Of a stretch of 32,000 nucleotides of DNA, positions 1 through 4,937 are shown piece by piece. The DNA is taken from assembly GCA_965261025.1 (NCBI GenBank), contig OZ253438.1:540001-572000 (forward strand). Reading direction: 5' to 3'. The stretch is from Chlamydiales bacterium. GTDB taxonomy: Bacteria; Chlamydiota; Chlamydiia; Chlamydiales; SM23-39. The notes below the pieces were generated by a model. The model searched no databases. It was not told the origin of the DNA and saw only the letters and a list, made by a program, of their open reading frames with translations. The translations under genes were made by a program, and so were the position numbers. Each line of letters starts with the position of its first letter. Position 1 is the first letter of the stretch.

Positions 1-34
1 GGCACCTGAAAATTTTCGTTTCAAGTGCCTTTTA
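1..34 (+). terminator. Stem-loop at the window edge followed by a short T-run; candidate (possibly bidirectional) terminator
   Basis: GGCACCTGAAA (1-11) pairs with TTTCAAGTGCC (19-29): 11 bp with one C:A mismatch and a 7-nt loop, followed by TTTT (30-33). It lies 13 nt beyond the tRNA-Asn 3' remnant at 43-87. The stem could extend beyond the window. Confidence 0.4.
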
Positions 35-42
35 GTCAAGAT

Positions 43-87
43 CTCCGGATGCTTGATTCGAACAAGCGATCAATGGATTAACAGTCC
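43..87 (-). repeat. 45-nt copy of the 3' part of tRNA-Asn (anticodon arm through discriminator); att-like direct repeat
   Basis: Positions 43-87 match 2421-2465 at 44 of 45 positions in the same orientation. The single mismatch is t70 versus c2448, in the variable loop. Similarity stops abruptly at 87/2465. Confidence 0.85.
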
Positions 88-89
88 TT

Positions 90-260
90 TTCCCTTCCAC
101 CCCCCACAACATCAGGCCAATCATAACAACTACAAAATTAAAAAGTTAGACTCTTCTTCTTTGTGGCGGTGATAAGGGATCTCAAACAAAAGATATATCT
201 AAAGCGAAGGACTACTTAAAAGATTACTTAAAGGAGAAGGAAAAACATGCCAAAAAGTAG
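90..260 (+). pseudogene. 5'-truncated, stop-interrupted remnant of a HigB/RelE-superfamily 'addiction module killer' toxin
   Basis: The frame through 150-260 reads TLLLCGGDKGSQTKDISKAKDYLKDYLKEKEKHAKK*. This is the LLCGGDK..Q.KDI..AK C-terminus characteristic of killer proteins encoded upstream of HigA-family antidotes. Its stop (258-260) overlaps the antitoxin start. An in-frame TAG lies at 147-149. The same frame upstream (..IRPIITTKLKS*) keeps family-like spacing but ends at the att repeat, so roughly the N-terminal half is missing. Confidence 0.6.
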
Positions 261-549
261 AAAATACCAAGACTTTTTAATAGAAGAATTAAAAGATCAC
301 GAACAAGCTGTAGCTTACCTTAATGGAGCCTTAGAAGAAAGTCTTAAAGGAGACGAAGAATCTCAAAATCTTTTTCTTCTGGCTCTTAGAAATGTAGCTG
401 AAGCTCAAGGTGGAATTGGAAATTTAGCAAAAAAAGCCCACTTAGGGAGAGAAAGCCTTTATAAGACTCTTTCCGGAAAAGGAAACCCTAGGTGGCATAC
501 ACTGGTTTCTTTAGTTATTGCTTTGGGTTTAAACTTGAGACTCTCCTAA
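247..549 (+). CDS. higA: HigA-family antitoxin (addiction module antidote protein, HTH DNA-binding)
   Basis: This 100-aa protein contains AQGGIGNLAKKAHLGRESLYKTLSGKGNPRWHTLVSLVIALGLNLRL. That matches the family signature ..G...LA...GLSRESLYRALS..GNP.....L.V..ALGL.L. AGGAGAAGG lies 5-6 nt upstream of the ATG. Confidence 0.85.
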   Translation: MPKSRKYQDFLIEELKDHEQAVAYLNGALEESLKGDEESQNLFLLALRNVAEAQGGIGNLAKKAHLGRESLYKTLSGKGNPRWHTLVSLVIALGLNLRLS

Positions 550-559
550 TAGCTTATTA

Positions 560-1162
560 TCACTTCTTCCAATTAGAAGGCTTTGCCGCTCCTCTTGTTT
601 TAGAAGCAATAACAGGCAATGACTGTCCTAGCTTTATAAGATTATTAATAGAAGAAAGACCTTCTGGATGGAGAGTAATTATGCTTTCTTTATGAATAGG
701 GTAATAGGAGGATTTTTCCATACAGCATTGAGTTGCTTTAATAATATCTTCTATAAAAAGCTCAAGACATATAAAAAAATAGCCATGTAAAATAGATAGA
801 TGAGCCTGAACTTGTGAGCGTTTCTGAAAAAATGCTAGAGAGGCAAATAAATCTCCCTCTCTACTTCCTGTTAATTGGTGAAGAAGACTACATCTAAAAT
901 TATGATAATCTTTCGCTTTAACTAGGGGGTCCTGTCCTTGTTTTTCTGTTTGCTTTTGAGAATATATCTTTTTGATGCCGGGAGAAACTTCGTAGTTAGG
1001 TAAATATTCCCGAAACCAACTGCAAAACTTACTTGCAGAGGTTTTTCCATCCTCAGAATCAATCGCTGAAATGACATCTATTGTTGTAAAAGCTCCAAGT
1101 AATGAAAGTAATGGCAAGTCTTGACTCAGTGAACGTTTAAGCTGATCAAGGTAATATTCCAT
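560..1162 (-). CDS. Hypothetical protein, 200 aa, with a HEPN-like Rx4H motif (candidate RNase/toxin-type domain)
   Basis: The ORF has a good SD (AGAGGGAGA, 4 nt before the ATG). It lies 51 nt downstream of fic on the same strand, with no hairpin between them. The motif YHNFRCSLLHQ (R90-x4-H95, nt 878-895) fits the HEPN Rx4-6H signature. I recognise no other family. Confidence 0.35.
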   Translation of the reverse strand: MEYYLDQLKRSLSQDLPLLSLLGAFTTIDVISAIDSEDGKTSASKFCSWFREYLPNYEVSPGIKKIYSQKQTEKQGQDPLVKAKDYHNFRCSLLHQLTGSREGDLFASLAFFQKRSQVQAHLSILHGYFFICLELFIEDIIKATQCCMEKSSYYPIHKESIITLHPEGLSSINNLIKLGQSLPVIASKTRGAAKPSNWKK

Positions 1163-1213
1163 TTAATCTCCCTCTTTTGATTGGTTAAATCTGAGAAATG
1201 ATATTCTTAATCA

Positions 1214-2305
1214 CTATTTCAGCAATTCTTCATATCGAGCTGACAACTTGTACTTGCGCCCCCTATTGGAAAAATCGATAATTGTAAGAAAGTCTTCTTT
1301 TACCCATTGAGAACAAAGAGCTGCACTTGTACGCGACTTATAACCAAATAGCTCCCCTATTTGATGACTTGTAACGACTTCAAATTGTTGAAATAATTCC
1401 AAAACCTTGCGTTGTTTAGGATCAAGTTTTTTTAATAAACTGCTTTGATCAGAAAAACCTTTTTCGCTCGCTTCTGACATATACTTCAAAACGTTTTCGA
1501 AAGAAAAAACCATCCCTTCAACAAAATATTCAATCCATTTTGTAATATCAGCATCCGCTCGTCCCATACAATAGTTATGAGACGTTCCAATACTTATTGC
1601 CTCATAATAAGCTCCCAAGTTACGAGCATAATATTCCTCTAATGAGTAGATTCCTTTTAAGTCATATTCACCTAGATATAAAATCAGCGTTGTAAAAAGC
1701 CTAGCTGTCCTTCCATTTCCATCATAATAAGGGTGAATAGTTGCAAATTGATAGTGAGTAATTGCAGCAATTAAAGGGCAAGGAAGGTCTTTATTGTGAT
1801 TAATCCAGTTTACAAGAGATACCATTAATTTATTAACATCCTTAGCTTCAGGAGGCATATAAATAATCGCTTTAGTTCGAGCGTCTCGAATTACATTCTG
1901 TCCATCACGGTATTTTGATAGCTGTACATTCTGCCTTCCATTAGCCATAACAAGCGCATGCAGGGTTTGAATATGTTTTTCTGTGATTTTTATATTTTTT
2001 GCCGTCCATTTCTCCACCTGCGTTAAAGCTATGTAATACCCCTTAACTTCATGCTCTTCTCGTTCTCTTCCAGGAAAATGTCCTTTATGCTTCACGACTT
2101 CCTGAATCTGATTAGGCTCAAGTTGATTGCCTTCAATCATCGTTGAATAATGTGTCGTGTACAAACGAGCTGTCTCCCTTAAAGAATTCAAAATCATTGG
2201 AGTCACAGGTAAATGCATTACTTTTTCTTTTGCAGACTCAATGCGCATAAGATAGGACATGACTTTAGGAGAAATAGTGTAGTTTGGCTTAAACTTTATC
2301 GGCAT
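1214..2305 (-). CDS. fic: Fic-domain protein (AMPylase-type) with an N-terminal autoinhibitory motif and a C-terminal winged-helix region
   Basis: The Fic active-site motif HPYYDGNGRTAR (residues 191-202, nt 1700-1735) fits HxFx(D/E)GNGRxxR. The Fic_N-type inhibitory motif STMIEG (residues 54-59, nt 2129-2146) fits (S/T)xxxE(G/N). The C-terminal roughly 70 aa (KQRKVLELFQQFEVVTSHQIGELFGYKSRTSAALCSQWV) looks like a wHTH. Confidence 0.9.
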   Translation of the reverse strand: MPIKFKPNYTISPKVMSYLMRIESAKEKVMHLPVTPMILNSLRETARLYTTHYSTMIEGNQLEPNQIQEVVKHKGHFPGREREEHEVKGYYIALTQVEKWTAKNIKITEKHIQTLHALVMANGRQNVQLSKYRDGQNVIRDARTKAIIYMPPEAKDVNKLMVSLVNWINHNKDLPCPLIAAITHYQFATIHPYYDGNGRTARLFTTLILYLGEYDLKGIYSLEEYYARNLGAYYEAISIGTSHNYCMGRADADITKWIEYFVEGMVFSFENVLKYMSEASEKGFSDQSSLLKKLDPKQRKVLELFQQFEVVTSHQIGELFGYKSRTSAALCSQWVKEDFLTIIDFSNRGRKYKLSARYEELLK

Positions 2306-2346
2306 AATAACAGCAATTTATCAGCATATTTTATACATTGTATTAT

Positions 2347-2366
2347 GCAGATAAAACGCAGATAAA
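2347..2366 (-). promoter_or_regulatory. Tandem 9-bp direct repeat (GCAGATAAA x2, 11-bp register) overlapping the likely fic promoter; candidate operator
   Basis: The repeats occupy 2347-2355 and 2358-2366. On the minus strand this reads TTTATCTGC-GT-TTTATCTGC, lying 17 nt upstream of a TACAAT -10-like hexamer (2342->2337) and about 45-60 nt upstream of the fic ATG. Confidence 0.3.
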
Positions 2367-2381
2367 GCCAATAATAAGGGG

Positions 2382-2415
2382 CAAAAAACAGAAACCCACT
2401 CAAAATGAGTGGGTT
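2382..2415 (-). terminator. Rho-independent terminator immediately downstream of tRNA-Asn
   Basis: A perfect 9-bp stem pairs AACCCACTC (2393-2401) with GAGTGGGTT (2407-2415) around a 5-nt loop. On the minus strand it is followed by TCTGTTTTTTG. It starts 5 nt after the tRNA 3' end. Confidence 0.75.
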
Positions 2416-2420
2416 AGAAA

Positions 2421-2492
2421 CTCCGGATGCTTGATTCGAACAAGCGACCAATGGATTAACAGTCCACTGCTCTACCGCTGAGCTAATCCGGA
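2421..2492 (-). tRNA. tRNA-Asn (anticodon GUU)
   Basis: The reverse complement folds by eye as a cloverleaf: TCCGGAT-TA-GCTC-AGCGGT-AGAGC-A-GTGGA-CTGTTAA-TCCAT-TGGTC-GCTTG-TTCGAAT-CAAGC-ATCCGGA-G. All four stems are complementary and the anticodon loop is CT-GTT-AA. CCA is not encoded. Confidence 0.9.
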
Positions 2493-2774
2493 TTAAAAAA
2501 CGGAAAATGACACCCCAAGGGTAAACCTCCCCGCCAAAGATCTTGGATACTAATATACAAGGTCTTTTAAGGAACGAATTGTAAGACGGAAAGTTCGAAA
2601 ATCGCAAGCAAAATTTACAGAATAGGGCAATTGTCCTATCTCAGTATCTCCGGTTTTGAATTACTGACTTTAAGAGCGCCTCGGGTAAAAACCTTCTTAA
2701 TTTCTTTCCAAGAACCTTGCCTGTTCAGGAAAGAAAATGCTAGAGTATCTGAAAATTGCCTAGATACGCCTCTT

Positions 2775-4937
2775 ATGGACTCTATAGCTGGTTTCATAGA
2801 AACTATTTTATACGTTAGCCCAGATACGGGTTTTACCATTGCCAAAATTAAGGAAGAAAAGAAAAAAACTCTTACTACTGTTCTCGGTTACATCCCTTCC
2901 GTACAGCCTGGAGAATCTCTACTTTGCAAAGGAAGCTGGAAGAGCCATCCCAAGCATGGCATGCAATTTGAAGTTTCCGAATATGAGATAACAGCTCCTT
3001 CTGATCTTATTGGAATTCAAAAGTATCTAGAATCAGGCCTTATTAAGGGAATTGGTCCTGTATACGCCAAGAAAATTATTCAAAAATTCAAGGAAAGAAC
3101 TCTTGAAATTCTAGAACAGACTCCTTATCGCCTTCTAGAACTTGAAGGAATAGGAAAGAAAAAAATCCAAAGTATCATCCAATGTTGGCAAGAACAAAAA
3201 TCCATCCGTAACGTGATGATTTTCCTGAGAAAGCATGAAGTAAGCCCTGCCTATGCCCAGAAAATCTTCAAAGCTTATGGCCAAGATAGCATAGAGCAGG
3301 TAAAAAAAAATCCCTATCAGCTAGCCAAAGAAGTATTTGGAATCGGCTTTAAAATAGCAGATAGCTTAGCAAAAAACTTAGGATTTGATCCTTCTTCTCC
3401 AGAAAGGCTTCAGGCTGCTTTAGAGTTTTTGTTATGGGATCTTTCTACTGAAGGGCATACCTGCTACCCAGAAAAAGCTCTGATAGAAAAAGCTTCTACT
3501 ATGTTAGAGGTAGAAAAACAGGAGATTGAAAAAAACTTAGCATCTCTTCTACAACTCCACCAAATCCGAAAAGAGAATAAACTTTTAGAAGGGGAAAATA
3601 TCCCCTTTATATGGCTTGCCCTCCTTTATAACAGCGAAAAAACTATCTGCAAAGAAATCACAAGAATTATAGAAGCGCCTTCTGCCATTCGTTCCATAGA
3701 CAAAGAAAAGGCCCTTTCCTGGGTAGAAGAAAAGCTTTTTATTTCTCTAGCAGAAAAACAAAAAGAGGCTCTTTTACAAGCTTTTTTACAAAAAATTCAT
3801 ATCATAACAGGAGGGCCCGGTACAGGAAAGAGTACTATTACGAAAGCGCTGCTTACTATTCTGCAAAAGCTCACTCCTAATTTACTCCTTTGTGCTCCCA
3901 CGGGAAAAGCCGCTAAAAGACTAACACAAATTACCCACAAAAAGGCCTTCACTATCCATAGTTTGCTCGAAATGGACTTTATAAGCGGTGGTTTTAAGAA
4001 AAATCGGAATAACCCTCTTTCTTGTGACTTTTTGATTGTAGATGAAGCTAGTATGATCGATACCTTTTTAATGCTTCATCTTCTCTCTGCTATTCCTTCT
4101 CATTCTCAAGTTCTTTTCATTGGAGACATTGATCAGCTTCCCAGTATTGGTCCGGGATCTGTACTAAAAGATCTTATTGCCTCCCAAAAAATCCCTGTTT
4201 CTACCCTTACTGAAATCTTTCGCCAAGCTTCTTATTCTAGGATTATTTTAAATGCACACCGAATTAACAAAGGAGATTTTCCCGATCTTTTTGAATCAGA
4301 AAAGAGTGATTTCCGTTTTTTTTCTGTGGAAGAACCAGAGAAAATTCAGGAAAAGATCGTAGAGCTTCTTCAGGAAATTCCTCGAAAAAAAAAGTGGAAT
4401 CCTTTGCAAGACATACAGGTGCTTTCTCCTATGAAAAAAGGCCTTATAGGAACAGAGCAATTAAATGAGCTTTTACAAAAAACCCTAAATCCTAGCTCCT
4501 CTCCTTTTTACAGAGGAGGAAGAAAGTTTCACAAGAAGGATAAGGTAATACAGGTCAAAAATAATTATCAAAAAAAAGTATTTAATGGGGACGTAGGCCT
4601 TATAGAAAGAATTGACCTTGCAGAGCAAAGGATGGTTATTTTATTTGAAGAAAAGGAAGTAGAATATGACTTTTCAGAACTAGATGAAATCTCTTTAGCT
4701 TATGCAGTTTCAGTGCATAAATACCAAGGCAGTGAATGCCCTTGTATCCTTATGCCAATTCATACAAGCCATTTTATCCTTTTGCAAAGAAACCTTCTTT
4801 ACACAGCAATAACTCGAGGAAAAAGGCTGGTTCTTCTCGTAGGATCCAAGAAAGCAGTAGCTCTTGCTGTGAAAAATGATAAAGTCTTAAAAAGATTTAC
4901 TGCTTTAGAAGCTTTTTTAAAAGAGTCTATAGCTTGA
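2775..4937 (+). CDS. recD2: RecD2-type ATP-dependent 5'-3' DNA helicase (SF1B)
   Basis: Evidence includes Walker A GGPGTGKST, LIVDEASM, FIGDIDQLPSIGPG, and C-terminal VHKYQGSE..LLYTAITRGK. The N-terminal HhH-rich region is typical of RecD2. The ORF-track start at 2631 is a TTG. The ATG at 2775 (MDSIAGFIETI..) fits the family N-terminus better. Confidence 0.85.
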   Translation: MDSIAGFIETILYVSPDTGFTIAKIKEEKKKTLTTVLGYIPSVQPGESLLCKGSWKSHPKHGMQFEVSEYEITAPSDLIGIQKYLESGLIKGIGPVYAKKIIQKFKERTLEILEQTPYRLLELEGIGKKKIQSIIQCWQEQKSIRNVMIFLRKHEVSPAYAQKIFKAYGQDSIEQVKKNPYQLAKEVFGIGFKIADSLAKNLGFDPSSPERLQAALEFLLWDLSTEGHTCYPEKALIEKASTMLEVEKQEIEKNLASLLQLHQIRKENKLLEGENIPFIWLALLYNSEKTICKEITRIIEAPSAIRSIDKEKALSWVEEKLFISLAEKQKEALLQAFLQKIHIITGGPGTGKSTITKALLTILQKLTPNLLLCAPTGKAAKRLTQITHKKAFTIHSLLEMDFISGGFKKNRNNPLSCDFLIVDEASMIDTFLMLHLLSAIPSHSQVLFIGDIDQLPSIGPGSVLKDLIASQKIPVSTLTEIFRQASYSRIILNAHRINKGDFPDLFESEKSDFRFFSVEEPEKIQEKIVELLQEIPRKKKWNPLQDIQVLSPMKKGLIGTEQLNELLQKTLNPSSSPFYRGGRKFHKKDKVIQVKNNYQKKVFNGDVGLIERIDLAEQRMVILFEEKEVEYDFSELDEISLAYAVSVHKYQGSECPCILMPIHTSHFILLQRNLLYTAITRGKRLVLLVGSKKAVALAVKNDKVLKRFTALEAFLKESIA

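What the first reader, a model, noticed from the sequence alone, without database searches (positions are those of the whole stretch)
43..2492. Decayed integrase-less islet at tRNA-Asn, bounded by a 45-nt direct repeat of the tRNA 3' part
An intact tRNA-Asn (2421-2492, minus strand) and a 44/45-identical copy of its 3' 45 nt (43-87, same orientation) bracket about 2.3 kb. This is the classic footprint of site-specific integration into a tRNA 3' end. Each tRNA 3' copy is followed within 5-13 nt by its own terminator hairpin (2393-2415 and 1-29). That fits an element-borne 3' end plus the displaced original. The cargo consists only of conflict-type genes: a HigB remnant, HigA, a HEPN-like ORF and Fic. 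No integrase is present, and the toxin remnant is cut exactly at the repeat boundary, which implies secondary deletion. Such an islet is notable inside otherwise strongly conserved, streamlined core synteny of an apparent obligate intracellular lineage.
Basis: partly seen in the sequence, partly recalled or inferred. Interest (0 to 1): 0.7.

Follow-up and report, generated by a model that had tools for sequence, protein, structure and literature searches.

The report
Integrase-less integration scar at tRNA-Asn
This is a real but ordinary leftover of mobile DNA that inserted into the end of a tRNA-Asn gene in an environmental chlamydia; the site is a recurrent landing pad whose cargo of toxin-antitoxin and phage-defence genes differs between related genomes.

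Summary
tRNA-Asn(GTT) lies at 2421-2492 (-). A 44/45 copy of its 3' 45 nt lies at 43-87. Each copy is followed by a stable hairpin.

The integration-scar reading is supported by relatives in the Parachlamydiales.
- The closest relative found (L001/L019, RecD2 79% identical) carries an intact 7.6-kb element at the same tRNA-Asn. It has a tyrosine integrase next to the tRNA and a 44-nt tRNA 3' copy at its far end.
- That far end is followed by the same hairpin that follows the intact tRNA in the window. The window is therefore the empty site for that element.
- The frame "att copy, flank, higBA ... hairpin, tRNA-Asn" recurs in L019 and L021; L027 keeps it without the att copy. The cargo differs each time: SoFic-type Fic plus a 200-aa ORF here, Bro-N/PDC-S13, RHS plus Abi_C, or a 175-aa protein.
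- More distant relatives have their own integrase-less islets (L005, L014, L034) or no copy at all (L004).

Three corrections apply. HigB is not cut at the repeat boundary; about 380 nt were lost further in. The "HEPN-like" label is unproven. The islet is probably a multi-event mosaic.

This is a new member of a known kind and of modest interest.

The parts
1..29 (-). Distal hairpin downstream of the relic tRNA 3' copy. It is a candidate for the displaced ancestral tRNA-Asn terminator.
   Evidence: It folds at -14.4 kcal/mol, z -4.8. Its tail lies off the window, so a T-run cannot be checked. The stem start GGCACTT and the preceding tail resemble the tRNA-proximal tails of L034 and L005 (my reading of the table).
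43..87 (-). Relic att copy, identical to the 3' 45 nt of tRNA-Asn (anticodon stem to discriminator) at 44 of 45 bases.
   Evidence: E 4.8e-19. The same boundary, GACTGTTAA, is seen in copies in L019 (two), L021, L034 and L014.
88..125 (+). Conserved att-flanking segment, interpreted as the distal arm of the old element.
   Evidence: The window stretch 55-170 is 90.5% identical to the old arm in L019, and 39-173 is 73.7% identical to L021. It is weakly similar, in register, to the distal arm of L019's intact element: Smith-Waterman score 17 against shuffles of 8.2 +/- 1.6, reached by 1 of 1000 shuffles.
126..260 (+). HigB (HI1419, RelE/ParE-type) remnant. It holds about 42 C-terminal codons with an in-frame stop at 147-149. 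The deletion junction lies near 157-172, and the remnant's stop at 258-260 overlaps the higA start.
   Evidence: Frame-3 translation. BLAST alignments are in register from 126 (L021), 133 (L024) and 157 (L001). The intact 109-aa HigB of L021 matches TIGR02683 at E 1e-34.
247..549 (+). HigA antitoxin (HI1420 family), intact but orphaned.
   Evidence: PF21716 at E 3.6e-16 and TIGR02684 above its cut-off. It is 88-91% identical to HigA in L019, L021 and L027.
560..1162 (-). 200-aa ORF of an uncharacterised family with an invariant R90-x4-H95 (FRCSLLHQ, encoded at 878-895).
   Evidence: It has no match in Pfam, NCBIfam or PADLOC. A full phmmer search finds 98 remote homologues, aligned as A1. The AlphaFold2 model has pLDDT 88.8. 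Foldseek finds no PDB match but matches an Arthrobacter phage protein at E 2.7e-9. It matches phrog_18591. A 50% homologue lies at the same locus in L034.
1214..2305 (-). Fic protein of the SoFic type. The catalytic motif HPYYDGNGRTAR is at residues 191-202 (window 1700-1735), and the inhibitory motif STMIEG is at residues 54-59.
   Evidence: PF02661. The PADLOC SoFic model matches at E 4.3e-51 over the full length. PDB relatives are 4rgl, FICD and SoFic.
2393..2415 (-). Intrinsic-terminator hairpin directly after the intact tRNA-Asn.
   Evidence: It is orthologous to the hairpin after the displaced copy in the relative (L001 2264-2300; 90% over 81 nt together with the core).
2421..2492 (-). 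Intact tRNA-Asn(GTT), the attachment site.
   Evidence: Its position next to RecD2 is conserved in all nine chlamydial loci where the tRNA could be scanned, counting L001 and L019 as one.
2631..4937 (+). RecD2-type helicase, the conserved chromosomal flank used as an anchor.
   Evidence: Identity to relatives is 55-79%.

Best explanation
Positions 43-2492 are the decayed product of tyrosine-integrase-mediated insertion into the 3' part of tRNA-Asn in a member of the Parachlamydiales.

**Shown**
- An element carrying a copy of the tRNA 3' 44-45 nt recombines with the gene. This leaves a functional tRNA at one end and a partial copy at the other. The process is seen intact in relative L019.
- The site is hit repeatedly in this order.

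**Inferred**
- The integrase and replication module of the element or elements that delivered the window's islet was later deleted.
- The far-end segment survived: the att copy, the flanking arm and a higBA addiction module. One or two blocks of conflict cargo also survived, namely the 200-aa ORF and a SoFic-type Fic gene with its own terminator.
- A further deletion of about 380 nt removed the higB promoter and the 5' two-thirds of the toxin gene. It occurred between the arm's short higB-like stretch and the real higB. The result is an orphan HigA.

Without an integrase, the islet is now an immobile part of the chromosome. The intact tRNA-Asn remains a usable attachment site.
For: 1. **Repeat and tRNA.**
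2. **Intact comparator.** In L001/L019 (RecD2 79% identical) the order is as follows:
   - tRNA-Asn;
   - a 353-aa tyrosine integrase (PF00589, phrog_1);
   - a 289-aa ORF, an HNH protein, a 158-aa ORF, a T5orf172 protein, two small ORFs and a DUF3987 helicase;
   - a 44/44 tRNA 3' copy.
3. **Empty site.** Window 2384-2464 (hairpin plus core) matches L001 2264-2344, the far end of that element, at 90%. Window 2415-2493 matches the tRNA junction of the relative at 99%. No protein of that element has a remnant in the window.
4. **Shared frame, different cargo.**
   - L021 has hairpin, att copy, arm, spacer, intact HigB, HigA, a 139-aa ORF, Bro-N/PDC-S13, hairpin and tRNA.
   - L027 has 3'-truncated HigB, HigA, two DUF7336 genes, an RHS gene and Abi_C, then tRNA.
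   - L019 has HepT/MNT, frameshifted HigB, HigA and a 175-aa ORF.
5. **Stacking.** L019 and L014 each hold three copies. In L034 an att copy separates two cargo blocks, and the homologue of the 200-aa ORF sits beside HigA.
6. **Consistent copy boundary.** The copy starts at the anticodon stem in six independent copies. A second class starts at the variable loop in L005 and L014.
7. **Mobile cargo.**
   - The Fic protein is 70-92% identical across Chlamydiae and is also found in a Rickettsia endosymbiont, Gammaproteobacteria and Verrucomicrobia.
   - In L035 it lies next to a relaxase, TraD and IS605.
Against: - No integrase remnant survives in the window, so the element that delivered this particular cargo is not identified.
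- GC content is not atypical.
- No internal att relic separates the HigBA/200-aa block from Fic. The best match is 23 of 45, which is chance level. The multi-event history is therefore inferred only from relatives.
- The window starts at the distal hairpin and the source genome could not be fetched. The left chromosomal flank is unseen.
- No genome was found with tRNA-Asn followed directly by the 1-29 hairpin.
Confidence: 0.85

Rival explanations
1. Single-element model. One element carrying higBA, the 200-aa ORF, Fic and an integrase inserted once. One secondary deletion then removed the integrase and clipped higB.
For: There are only two att copies and no internal relic. The cargo is compact, and Fic and the 200-aa ORF are co-oriented only 51 nt apart.
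Against: - In L019 the integrase sits at the tRNA-proximal end, while higB sits at the far end. One deletion cannot remove both and spare Fic, the 200-aa ORF and HigA.
- The HigBA/200-aa block and the tRNA-proximal cargo are separated by an att copy in L034.
- The proximal cargo differs between relatives that share the frame.
Confidence: 0.15
2. Cassette exchange by homologous recombination. The frame (att relic, higBA, terminator, tRNA) is inherited vertically. The cargo between higA and the tRNA is swapped by recombination in the conserved flanks with incoming DNA, without site-specific integration each time.
For: - The same frame holds four different cargos.
- No internal att relic exists in the window.
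- HigA is 88-91% identical everywhere, which gives long homology.
Against: - Integrase-mediated stacking is seen directly in L019, L014 and L034.
- HigA is equally similar at unrelated loci (L024 and L030), so the shared frame may reflect independent acquisitions and not vertical descent.
Confidence: 0.2
3. The 43-87 copy is not an integration scar. It is the remains of a second tRNA-Asn gene or of a local segmental duplication.
For: A permissive Rfam scan gives a sub-threshold full-length tRNA alignment at 44-116 (17.2 bits, E 0.68).
Against: - That score is below the gathering score and is carried by the 3' 45 nt.
- ARAGORN finds nothing there.
- The 5' side is a flank conserved in L019 and L021, and it resembles the arm of an intact element.
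- The same boundary recurs at a proven integrase element.
Confidence: 0.03

Closest known systems
tRNA-targeting genomic islands with P4-like or phage-type tyrosine integrases, for example islands at asn tRNA genes in Enterobacteria such as the Yersinia HPI (from my own knowledge)
   Same: They insert into the 3' part of a tRNA gene and leave a direct repeat of the tRNA 3' end at the far border. The integrase sits next to the tRNA (seen in L019), successive insertions stack, and decay produces integrase-less islets.
   Different: The host is an environmental chlamydia. The repeat is long (44-45 nt, from the anticodon stem). The window copy has no integrase. The cargo is toxin-antitoxin and defence genes, not virulence or metabolic genes.
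Pam100G, the 100-kb genomic island of Protochlamydia amoebophila UWE25 (PMC548262)
   Same: It is a chlamydial chromosomal island bounded by direct repeats. The abstract reports two 17-bp direct repeats.
   Different: Pam100G is 100 kb and carries an F-like tra system. The feature here is a 2.3-kb remnant at tRNA-Asn, related to a 7.6-kb integrase and DUF3987-helicase element. I read only the abstract.
Defence-island hotspots occupied by small integrative elements or satellites with variable defence cargo (from my own knowledge of P4-like satellite hotspots in E. coli)
   Same: The attachment site and frame are fixed while the cargo varies. The cargo includes known or candidate anti-phage genes: SoFic, PDC-S13, AbiE, Abi_C and HepT/MNT.
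   Different: No capsid-hijacking or satellite genes were identified. The mobile state was seen in only one relative. Anti-phage function is untested.
SoFic single-gene anti-phage system (PADLOC PDLC03963; PMC12249575)
   Same: The Fic protein matches the model over its full length at E 4e-51. It has the HxFx(D/E)GNGRxxR-type motif and an N-terminal (S/T)xxxE(G/N) inhibitory motif.
   Different: It scores only 65 bits against the NCBIfam SoFic equivalog, whose cut-off is 550. The downstream gene is a 200-aa protein, not the 47-aa AS1 described in E. coli.
HigBA of the HI1419/HI1420 type (TIGR02683 and TIGR02684)
   Same: The antitoxin matches above the cut-off. The toxin lies upstream and overlaps the antitoxin. 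An intact pair is present in L021.
   Different: The toxin here is a 3' remnant with an internal stop, and its promoter is deleted.

Membership tests
tRNA-integrated genomic islet (relic of an integrative element) | An intact tRNA gene at one border | tested here: met
   tRNA-Asn at 2421-2492(-)
tRNA-integrated genomic islet (relic of an integrative element) | A direct repeat of the tRNA 3' part at the other border | tested here: met
   Positions 43-87, 44 of 45 bases, E 4.8e-19
tRNA-integrated genomic islet (relic of an integrative element) | A site-specific recombinase gene inside, next to the tRNA | tested here: not met
   There is no integrase domain and no remnant in the window. The feature is met in relative L019, which has a 353-aa PF00589 protein next to the tRNA. 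The window therefore holds a relic, not a functional element.
tRNA-integrated genomic islet (relic of an integrative element) | Presence/absence polymorphism at the same site in relatives | tested here: met
   The window lacks L019's 7.6-kb element, and the junctions match. L004 has no copy. L005, L014, L021 and L034 have different islets. An exact empty site for the window's own islet was not found.
tRNA-integrated genomic islet (relic of an integrative element) | Atypical base composition | tested here: not met
   GC is 0.35-0.37 inside and 0.36-0.40 outside. This feature is not essential for old or within-phylum transfers.
HigBA (HI1419/HI1420) type II toxin-antitoxin module | Antitoxin matches the HI1420 family above the curated cut-off | tested here: met
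   TIGR02684 at 60.1 bits against 53.7, and PF21716 at 59.2 bits against 27
HigBA (HI1419/HI1420) type II toxin-antitoxin module | An intact toxin gene upstream | tested here: not met
   Only about 42 C-terminal codons remain, with a stop at 147-149. The intact toxin is 109 aa in L021.
SoFic anti-phage system | Fic fold with catalytic motif HxFx(D/E)GNGRxxR | tested here: met
   HPYYDGNGRTAR at residues 191-202, with Y in place of F; PF02661
SoFic anti-phage system | Full-length match to a SoFic model | tested here: inconclusive
   The PADLOC SoFic model matches at E 4.3e-51 over residues 22-353. The NCBIfam equivalog gives 65 bits against a cut-off of 550.
SoFic anti-phage system | Protection against phage through AMPylation | not testable with these tools
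   This needs an experiment.
HEPN domain (claimed for the 200-aa ORF) | A conserved Rx4-6H motif | tested here: met
   R90 and H95 are invariant in 43 aligned family members.
HEPN domain (claimed for the 200-aa ORF) | An all-alpha HEPN fold, or a match to a HEPN profile | tested here: inconclusive
   - No member matches any Pfam family, and there is no NCBIfam or PADLOC match.
- The pLDDT 88.8 model is alpha+beta.
- Foldseek against the PDB finds nothing.

The most novel reading that the evidence does not exclude
In this clade of Parachlamydiales the tRNA-Asn site works as a long-lived cassette-exchange hotspot.

- A family of small integrase and DUF3987-helicase elements, with higBA at their far end, repeatedly delivers different defence genes and then decays.
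- The relic att copies stay recombinationally active. In every genome except L005 the relic copy carries that genome's own tRNA T-arm variant. This suggests that the elements or their relics exchange sequence with the functional tRNA-Asn gene and so rewrite its T-arm.
- The toxin was lost three independent ways while HigA stayed intact. The orphan HigA may be kept as anti-addiction immunity against incoming higBA elements.
Probability: 0.3. Interest if true: 0.55.

Novelty: new member of a known kind. Interest (0 to 1): 0.35.

Why it matters
- It documents an active integration site, and a candidate 7.6-kb integrative element, in environmental chlamydiae. These bacteria are obligate intracellular and genetic tools for them are scarce.
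- A defined attB (the 44-nt tRNA-Asn core) with a cognate integrase (L019) could serve as a chromosomal integration tool.
- One small locus concentrates toxin-antitoxin and anti-phage genes in these genomes: SoFic, PDC-S13, AbiE, Abi_C, HepT/MNT and HigBA. This makes the locus a convenient place to look for new defence genes.
- One such candidate is the uncharacterised 200-aa family with an invariant Rx4H dyad. It is also found in phages.

As a type of feature the islet itself is textbook.

Tried and rejected
- **Fetching the source genome's left flank.**
  - Five exact look-ups of window proteins failed.
  - HigA and the 200-aa protein are nevertheless in the protein collection, on a 1.42-Mb contig.
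- **Remnants of the L019 element's proteins in the window.** tblastn found none.
- **A third, internal att relic between the 200-aa ORF and Fic.** I thought I saw one by eye near 1166. A scan found nothing above chance; the best match is 23 of 45, at 1127.
- **Homology of the arm 88-156 to higB genes at the DNA level.**
  - On its own it is not significant (15-39 of 500 shuffles reach the score).
  - Only the in-register extension of the longer BLAST alignment back to about 126 supports it.
- **Similarity of att-flanking arms between the window and the islets in L005 and L014.** There is none, so those islets come from other element families.
- **The single-sequence structure model** was useless (pLDDT 38).
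- **The metagenome scan with RecD2** added only two chlamydial loci.
- **The 40-nt spacer motif upstream of higB** is absent from the window.
Full report
**1. Observation**

The window holds one tRNA gene, tRNA-Asn(GTT), at 2421-2492 on the minus strand (ARAGORN; Rfam 70.6 bits). Positions 43-87 repeat its 3' 45 nt in the same orientation at 44 of 45 bases (E 4.8e-19). The only difference is position 71, which is G46 to A in the tRNA.

Identity stops at the anticodon stem. A permissive Rfam scan gives only a sub-threshold 17.2-bit alignment for 44-116. ARAGORN sees no second gene.

Both copies are followed by stable hairpins:
- 2393-2415 folds at -14.7 kcal/mol and has a T-rich tail.
- 1-29 folds at -14.4 kcal/mol, and its tail runs off the window.

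Between the two copies lie four features:
- a HigB C-terminal remnant;
- an intact HigA at 247-549 (PF21716 and TIGR02684);
- a 200-aa ORF at 560-1162(-);
- a Fic gene at 1214-2305(-).

There is no integrase. GC content is unremarkable.

**2. Lineage and conserved anchor**

RecD2 (2631-4937) finds its best relatives in Parachlamydiales and Chlamydiae metagenome-assembled genomes. HigA and the 200-aa protein are on record from a 1.42-Mb contig, but that contig could not be fetched (failures).

tRNA-Asn sits directly upstream of recD2 in every chlamydial locus where the tRNA could be scanned: L001/L019, L004, L005, L013, L014, L021, L027 and L034. RecD2 identity to the window is shown below.

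| Locus | RecD2 identity to window |
|---|---|
| L001/L019 | 79% |
| L021 | 72% |
| L027 | 60% |
| L013 | 60% |
| L014 | 57% |
| L034 | 57% |
| L005 | 56% |
| L004 | 55% |

**3. An intact element at the same site; the window is its empty site**

In L001/L019 the tRNA-Asn is followed by these genes:
- a 353-aa tyrosine integrase (PF00589, phrog_1);
- a 289-aa ORF, an HNH protein, a 158-aa ORF and a T5orf172 protein;
- two small ORFs and a DUF3987 helicase-like protein;
- small ORFs.

About 7.6 kb from the tRNA lies a 44/44 copy of the tRNA 3' part. Beyond that copy comes the hairpin ACCCACTC...GAGTGGGT. It is orthologous to the hairpin that follows the intact tRNA in the window: window 2384-2464 matches L001 2264-2344 at 90%. 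The window's tRNA junction also matches L019's tRNA at 99%.

The window therefore has the unoccupied arrangement for this element. This shows the integrative mechanism directly. None of the element's proteins has a remnant in the window.

**4. The islet's frame recurs with different cargo**

L021 (HigA 91% identical) has, in order:
- a hairpin and a 45-nt tRNA copy that carries the same G46A;
- a flank homologous to window 88-173;
- a spacer of about 130 nt;
- intact HigB (109 aa; TIGR02683, E 1e-34) and HigA;
- a 139-aa ORF and a Bro-N protein (PADLOC PDC-S13, E 1e-120);
- a hairpin, tRNA-Asn and RecD2.

L019, beyond its intact element, has:
- a 175-aa membrane ORF, HigA and a frameshifted HigB;
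- a HepT/MNT pair bracketed by two copies of a 40-nt spacer motif;
- the same flank (90.5% identical to window 55-170);
- a truncated third tRNA copy;
- a 77-nt remnant of the window's 200-aa gene.

L027 has a 3'-truncated HigB, HigA, two DUF7336 genes, an RHS gene and Abi_C before the tRNA.

L034 has tRNA-Asn, five genes, a 43/44 tRNA copy, a 50% homologue of the 200-aa ORF, HigA/HigB, BrnTA and a further HigBA-like pair.

More distant genomes differ again:
- L005 has an AbiEi/AbiEii islet bounded by a 31-32-nt copy.
- L014 has two successive copies (41 nt and 32 nt).
- L004 has no copy.

Copy boundaries fall in two classes, at the anticodon stem or at the variable loop. This suggests at least two integrase specificities.

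**5. What happened to higB**

BLAST aligns window 126-539 in register with L021 higB-higA and 157-543 with L001. Window 39-173 also aligns with L021's att copy plus flank.

The overlap at 126-172 therefore resembles two things in L021: a short higB-like stretch in the flank, and the real higB. L021 contains both, about 380 nt apart.

The simplest reading is a deletion between these two stretches. It removed the spacer, the promoter and about 65 codons of higB. This is my inference.

The toxin is therefore not cut at the repeat boundary. It has also been inactivated in three different ways across relatives:
- a 5' deletion in the window;
- a frameshift in L019;
- a 3' deletion in L027.

HigA is always intact.

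**6. Cargo**

*Fic.* It has the catalytic motif HPYYDGNGRTAR and the class II inhibitory motif STMIEG. It matches the PADLOC SoFic model over its full length (E 4e-51) but falls far below NCBIfam's SoFic equivalog cut-off.

SoFic is described as an abortive-infection AMPylase. In E. coli it has a 47-aa downstream antitoxin (PMC12249575).

Fic homologues at 70-92% identity occur across Chlamydiae, and also in a Rickettsia endosymbiont, Gammaproteobacteria and Verrucomicrobia. In a Rhabdochlamydiaceae contig the homologue lies beside a relaxase, TraD and IS605. It is mobile cargo.

*The 200-aa ORF.* It belongs to an unannotated family:
- A full phmmer search finds 98 remote homologues.
- W49, R90, H95 and F136 are invariant, and the motif is FRCSLLHQ.
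- It matches phrog_18591.
- A confident model (pLDDT 88.8) is alpha+beta. It has no PDB match but matches an Arthrobacter phage protein.

HEPN membership is unproven.

**7. Interpretation**

I add four points:
- The site is a recurrent hotspot across the order.
- The window is the empty site for a live-looking element.
- The islet is more likely a mosaic of successive insertions and deletions than one element with one deletion.
- Its variable slot carries defence-type genes.

Two histories of the shared frame remain open. One is vertical inheritance with cargo replacement. The other is independent acquisition of related elements that carry higBA at their far end. Three observations bear on this:
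- HigA is 88-91% identical at the same locus and at unrelated loci.
- The non-coding flank is more similar between the window and L019 than higA is.
- Each relic copy carries its own genome's T-arm variant.

These three points are unexplained and are recorded in the notebook.

**8. Comparison and novelty**

This is the classic tRNA-island pattern. A chlamydial precedent exists in Pam100G (PMC548262). I found no paper on a tRNA-Asn hotspot or on defence islets in environmental chlamydiae in three searches. This is weak negative evidence.

Verdict: a real feature, a new member of a known kind, of modest interest.

Noticed in passing
L019 10922-18469 (= L001 2345-9892): A 7.6-kb integrative element at tRNA-Asn that looks intact. 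It carries a tyrosine integrase, a 289-aa ORF, an HNH protein, a T5orf172 protein, a DUF3987 helicase-like protein (phrog_2373) and small HTH-like ORFs. It is a candidate mobile element, and a possible integration tool, for environmental chlamydiae.
   Followed up: partly
Table (window 43-87 and 2421-2465; L021 2068-2112 and 4345-4416; L034, L014, L005): In five of six genomes the relic tRNA copy has the same T-stem variant as that genome's functional tRNA-Asn, although T-stems differ between genomes. The relic copies in the window and in L021 share the same G46A change.
   Followed up: partly
L005 6926-6956; L014 103-133, against the long copies elsewhere: There are two classes of tRNA-Asn partial copy. 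One is 44-45 nt and starts at the anticodon stem. The other is 31-32 nt and starts at the variable loop. This suggests at least two integrase families target the same gene.
   Followed up: no
window 247-549; L019, L021, L024, L027, L030: This HigA family is unusually uniform. About 970 clusters were found, the best 120 all at 80% identity or more. Copies are 88-91% identical whether at the tRNA-Asn locus or elsewhere, while RecD2 is 55-79% identical.
   Followed up: partly
L019 8635-8660 and 9572-9597; L021 2215-2240: A spacer motif of about 40 nt (TTTTGTGAYCRA.TGGG.AAAAWTTG) lies upstream of higB. It occurs twice in L019, bracketing a HepT/MNT pair as if that pair had been inserted as a cassette. 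In one frame it reads as a conserved hydrophobic peptide (WLLFVI-K/N-W). It is absent from the window.
   Followed up: partly
L024 9446-10303: A closely related higBA pair lies directly downstream of tRNA-Leu(TAA) in another chlamydial contig, followed by ankyrin and AAA_14 genes. It may be another tRNA-associated islet.
   Followed up: no
window 560-1162; alignment A1; model m45e3a6071ad8: The 200-aa ORF defines an unannotated family of proteins, typically about 165-190 aa. W, R-x4-H and F are invariant. It matches phrog_18591 and has a structural match to an Arthrobacter phage Nandita protein (TM 0.72). No Pfam family covers it.
   Followed up: partly
L035 3671-13451: An 85%-identical Fic gene in a Rhabdochlamydiaceae genome lies among TraD, a MobA/TraI-type relaxase, IS605 TnpA/TnpB, a second Fic-HTH pair and an RHS protein. 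The stretch looks like a plasmid or an integrative conjugative element.
   Followed up: no
L014 93-353: A transposase fragment, which looks DDE/IS630-like by my reading of the translation, lies beside the outermost tRNA-Asn partial copy.
   Followed up: no
window 1214-2305: The word-index protein search returned no 100% self-hit for Fic (best 92%). HigA and the 200-aa ORF from the same genome were both found at 100%. The Fic gene may be annotated differently, or not called, in the source record.
   Followed up: no
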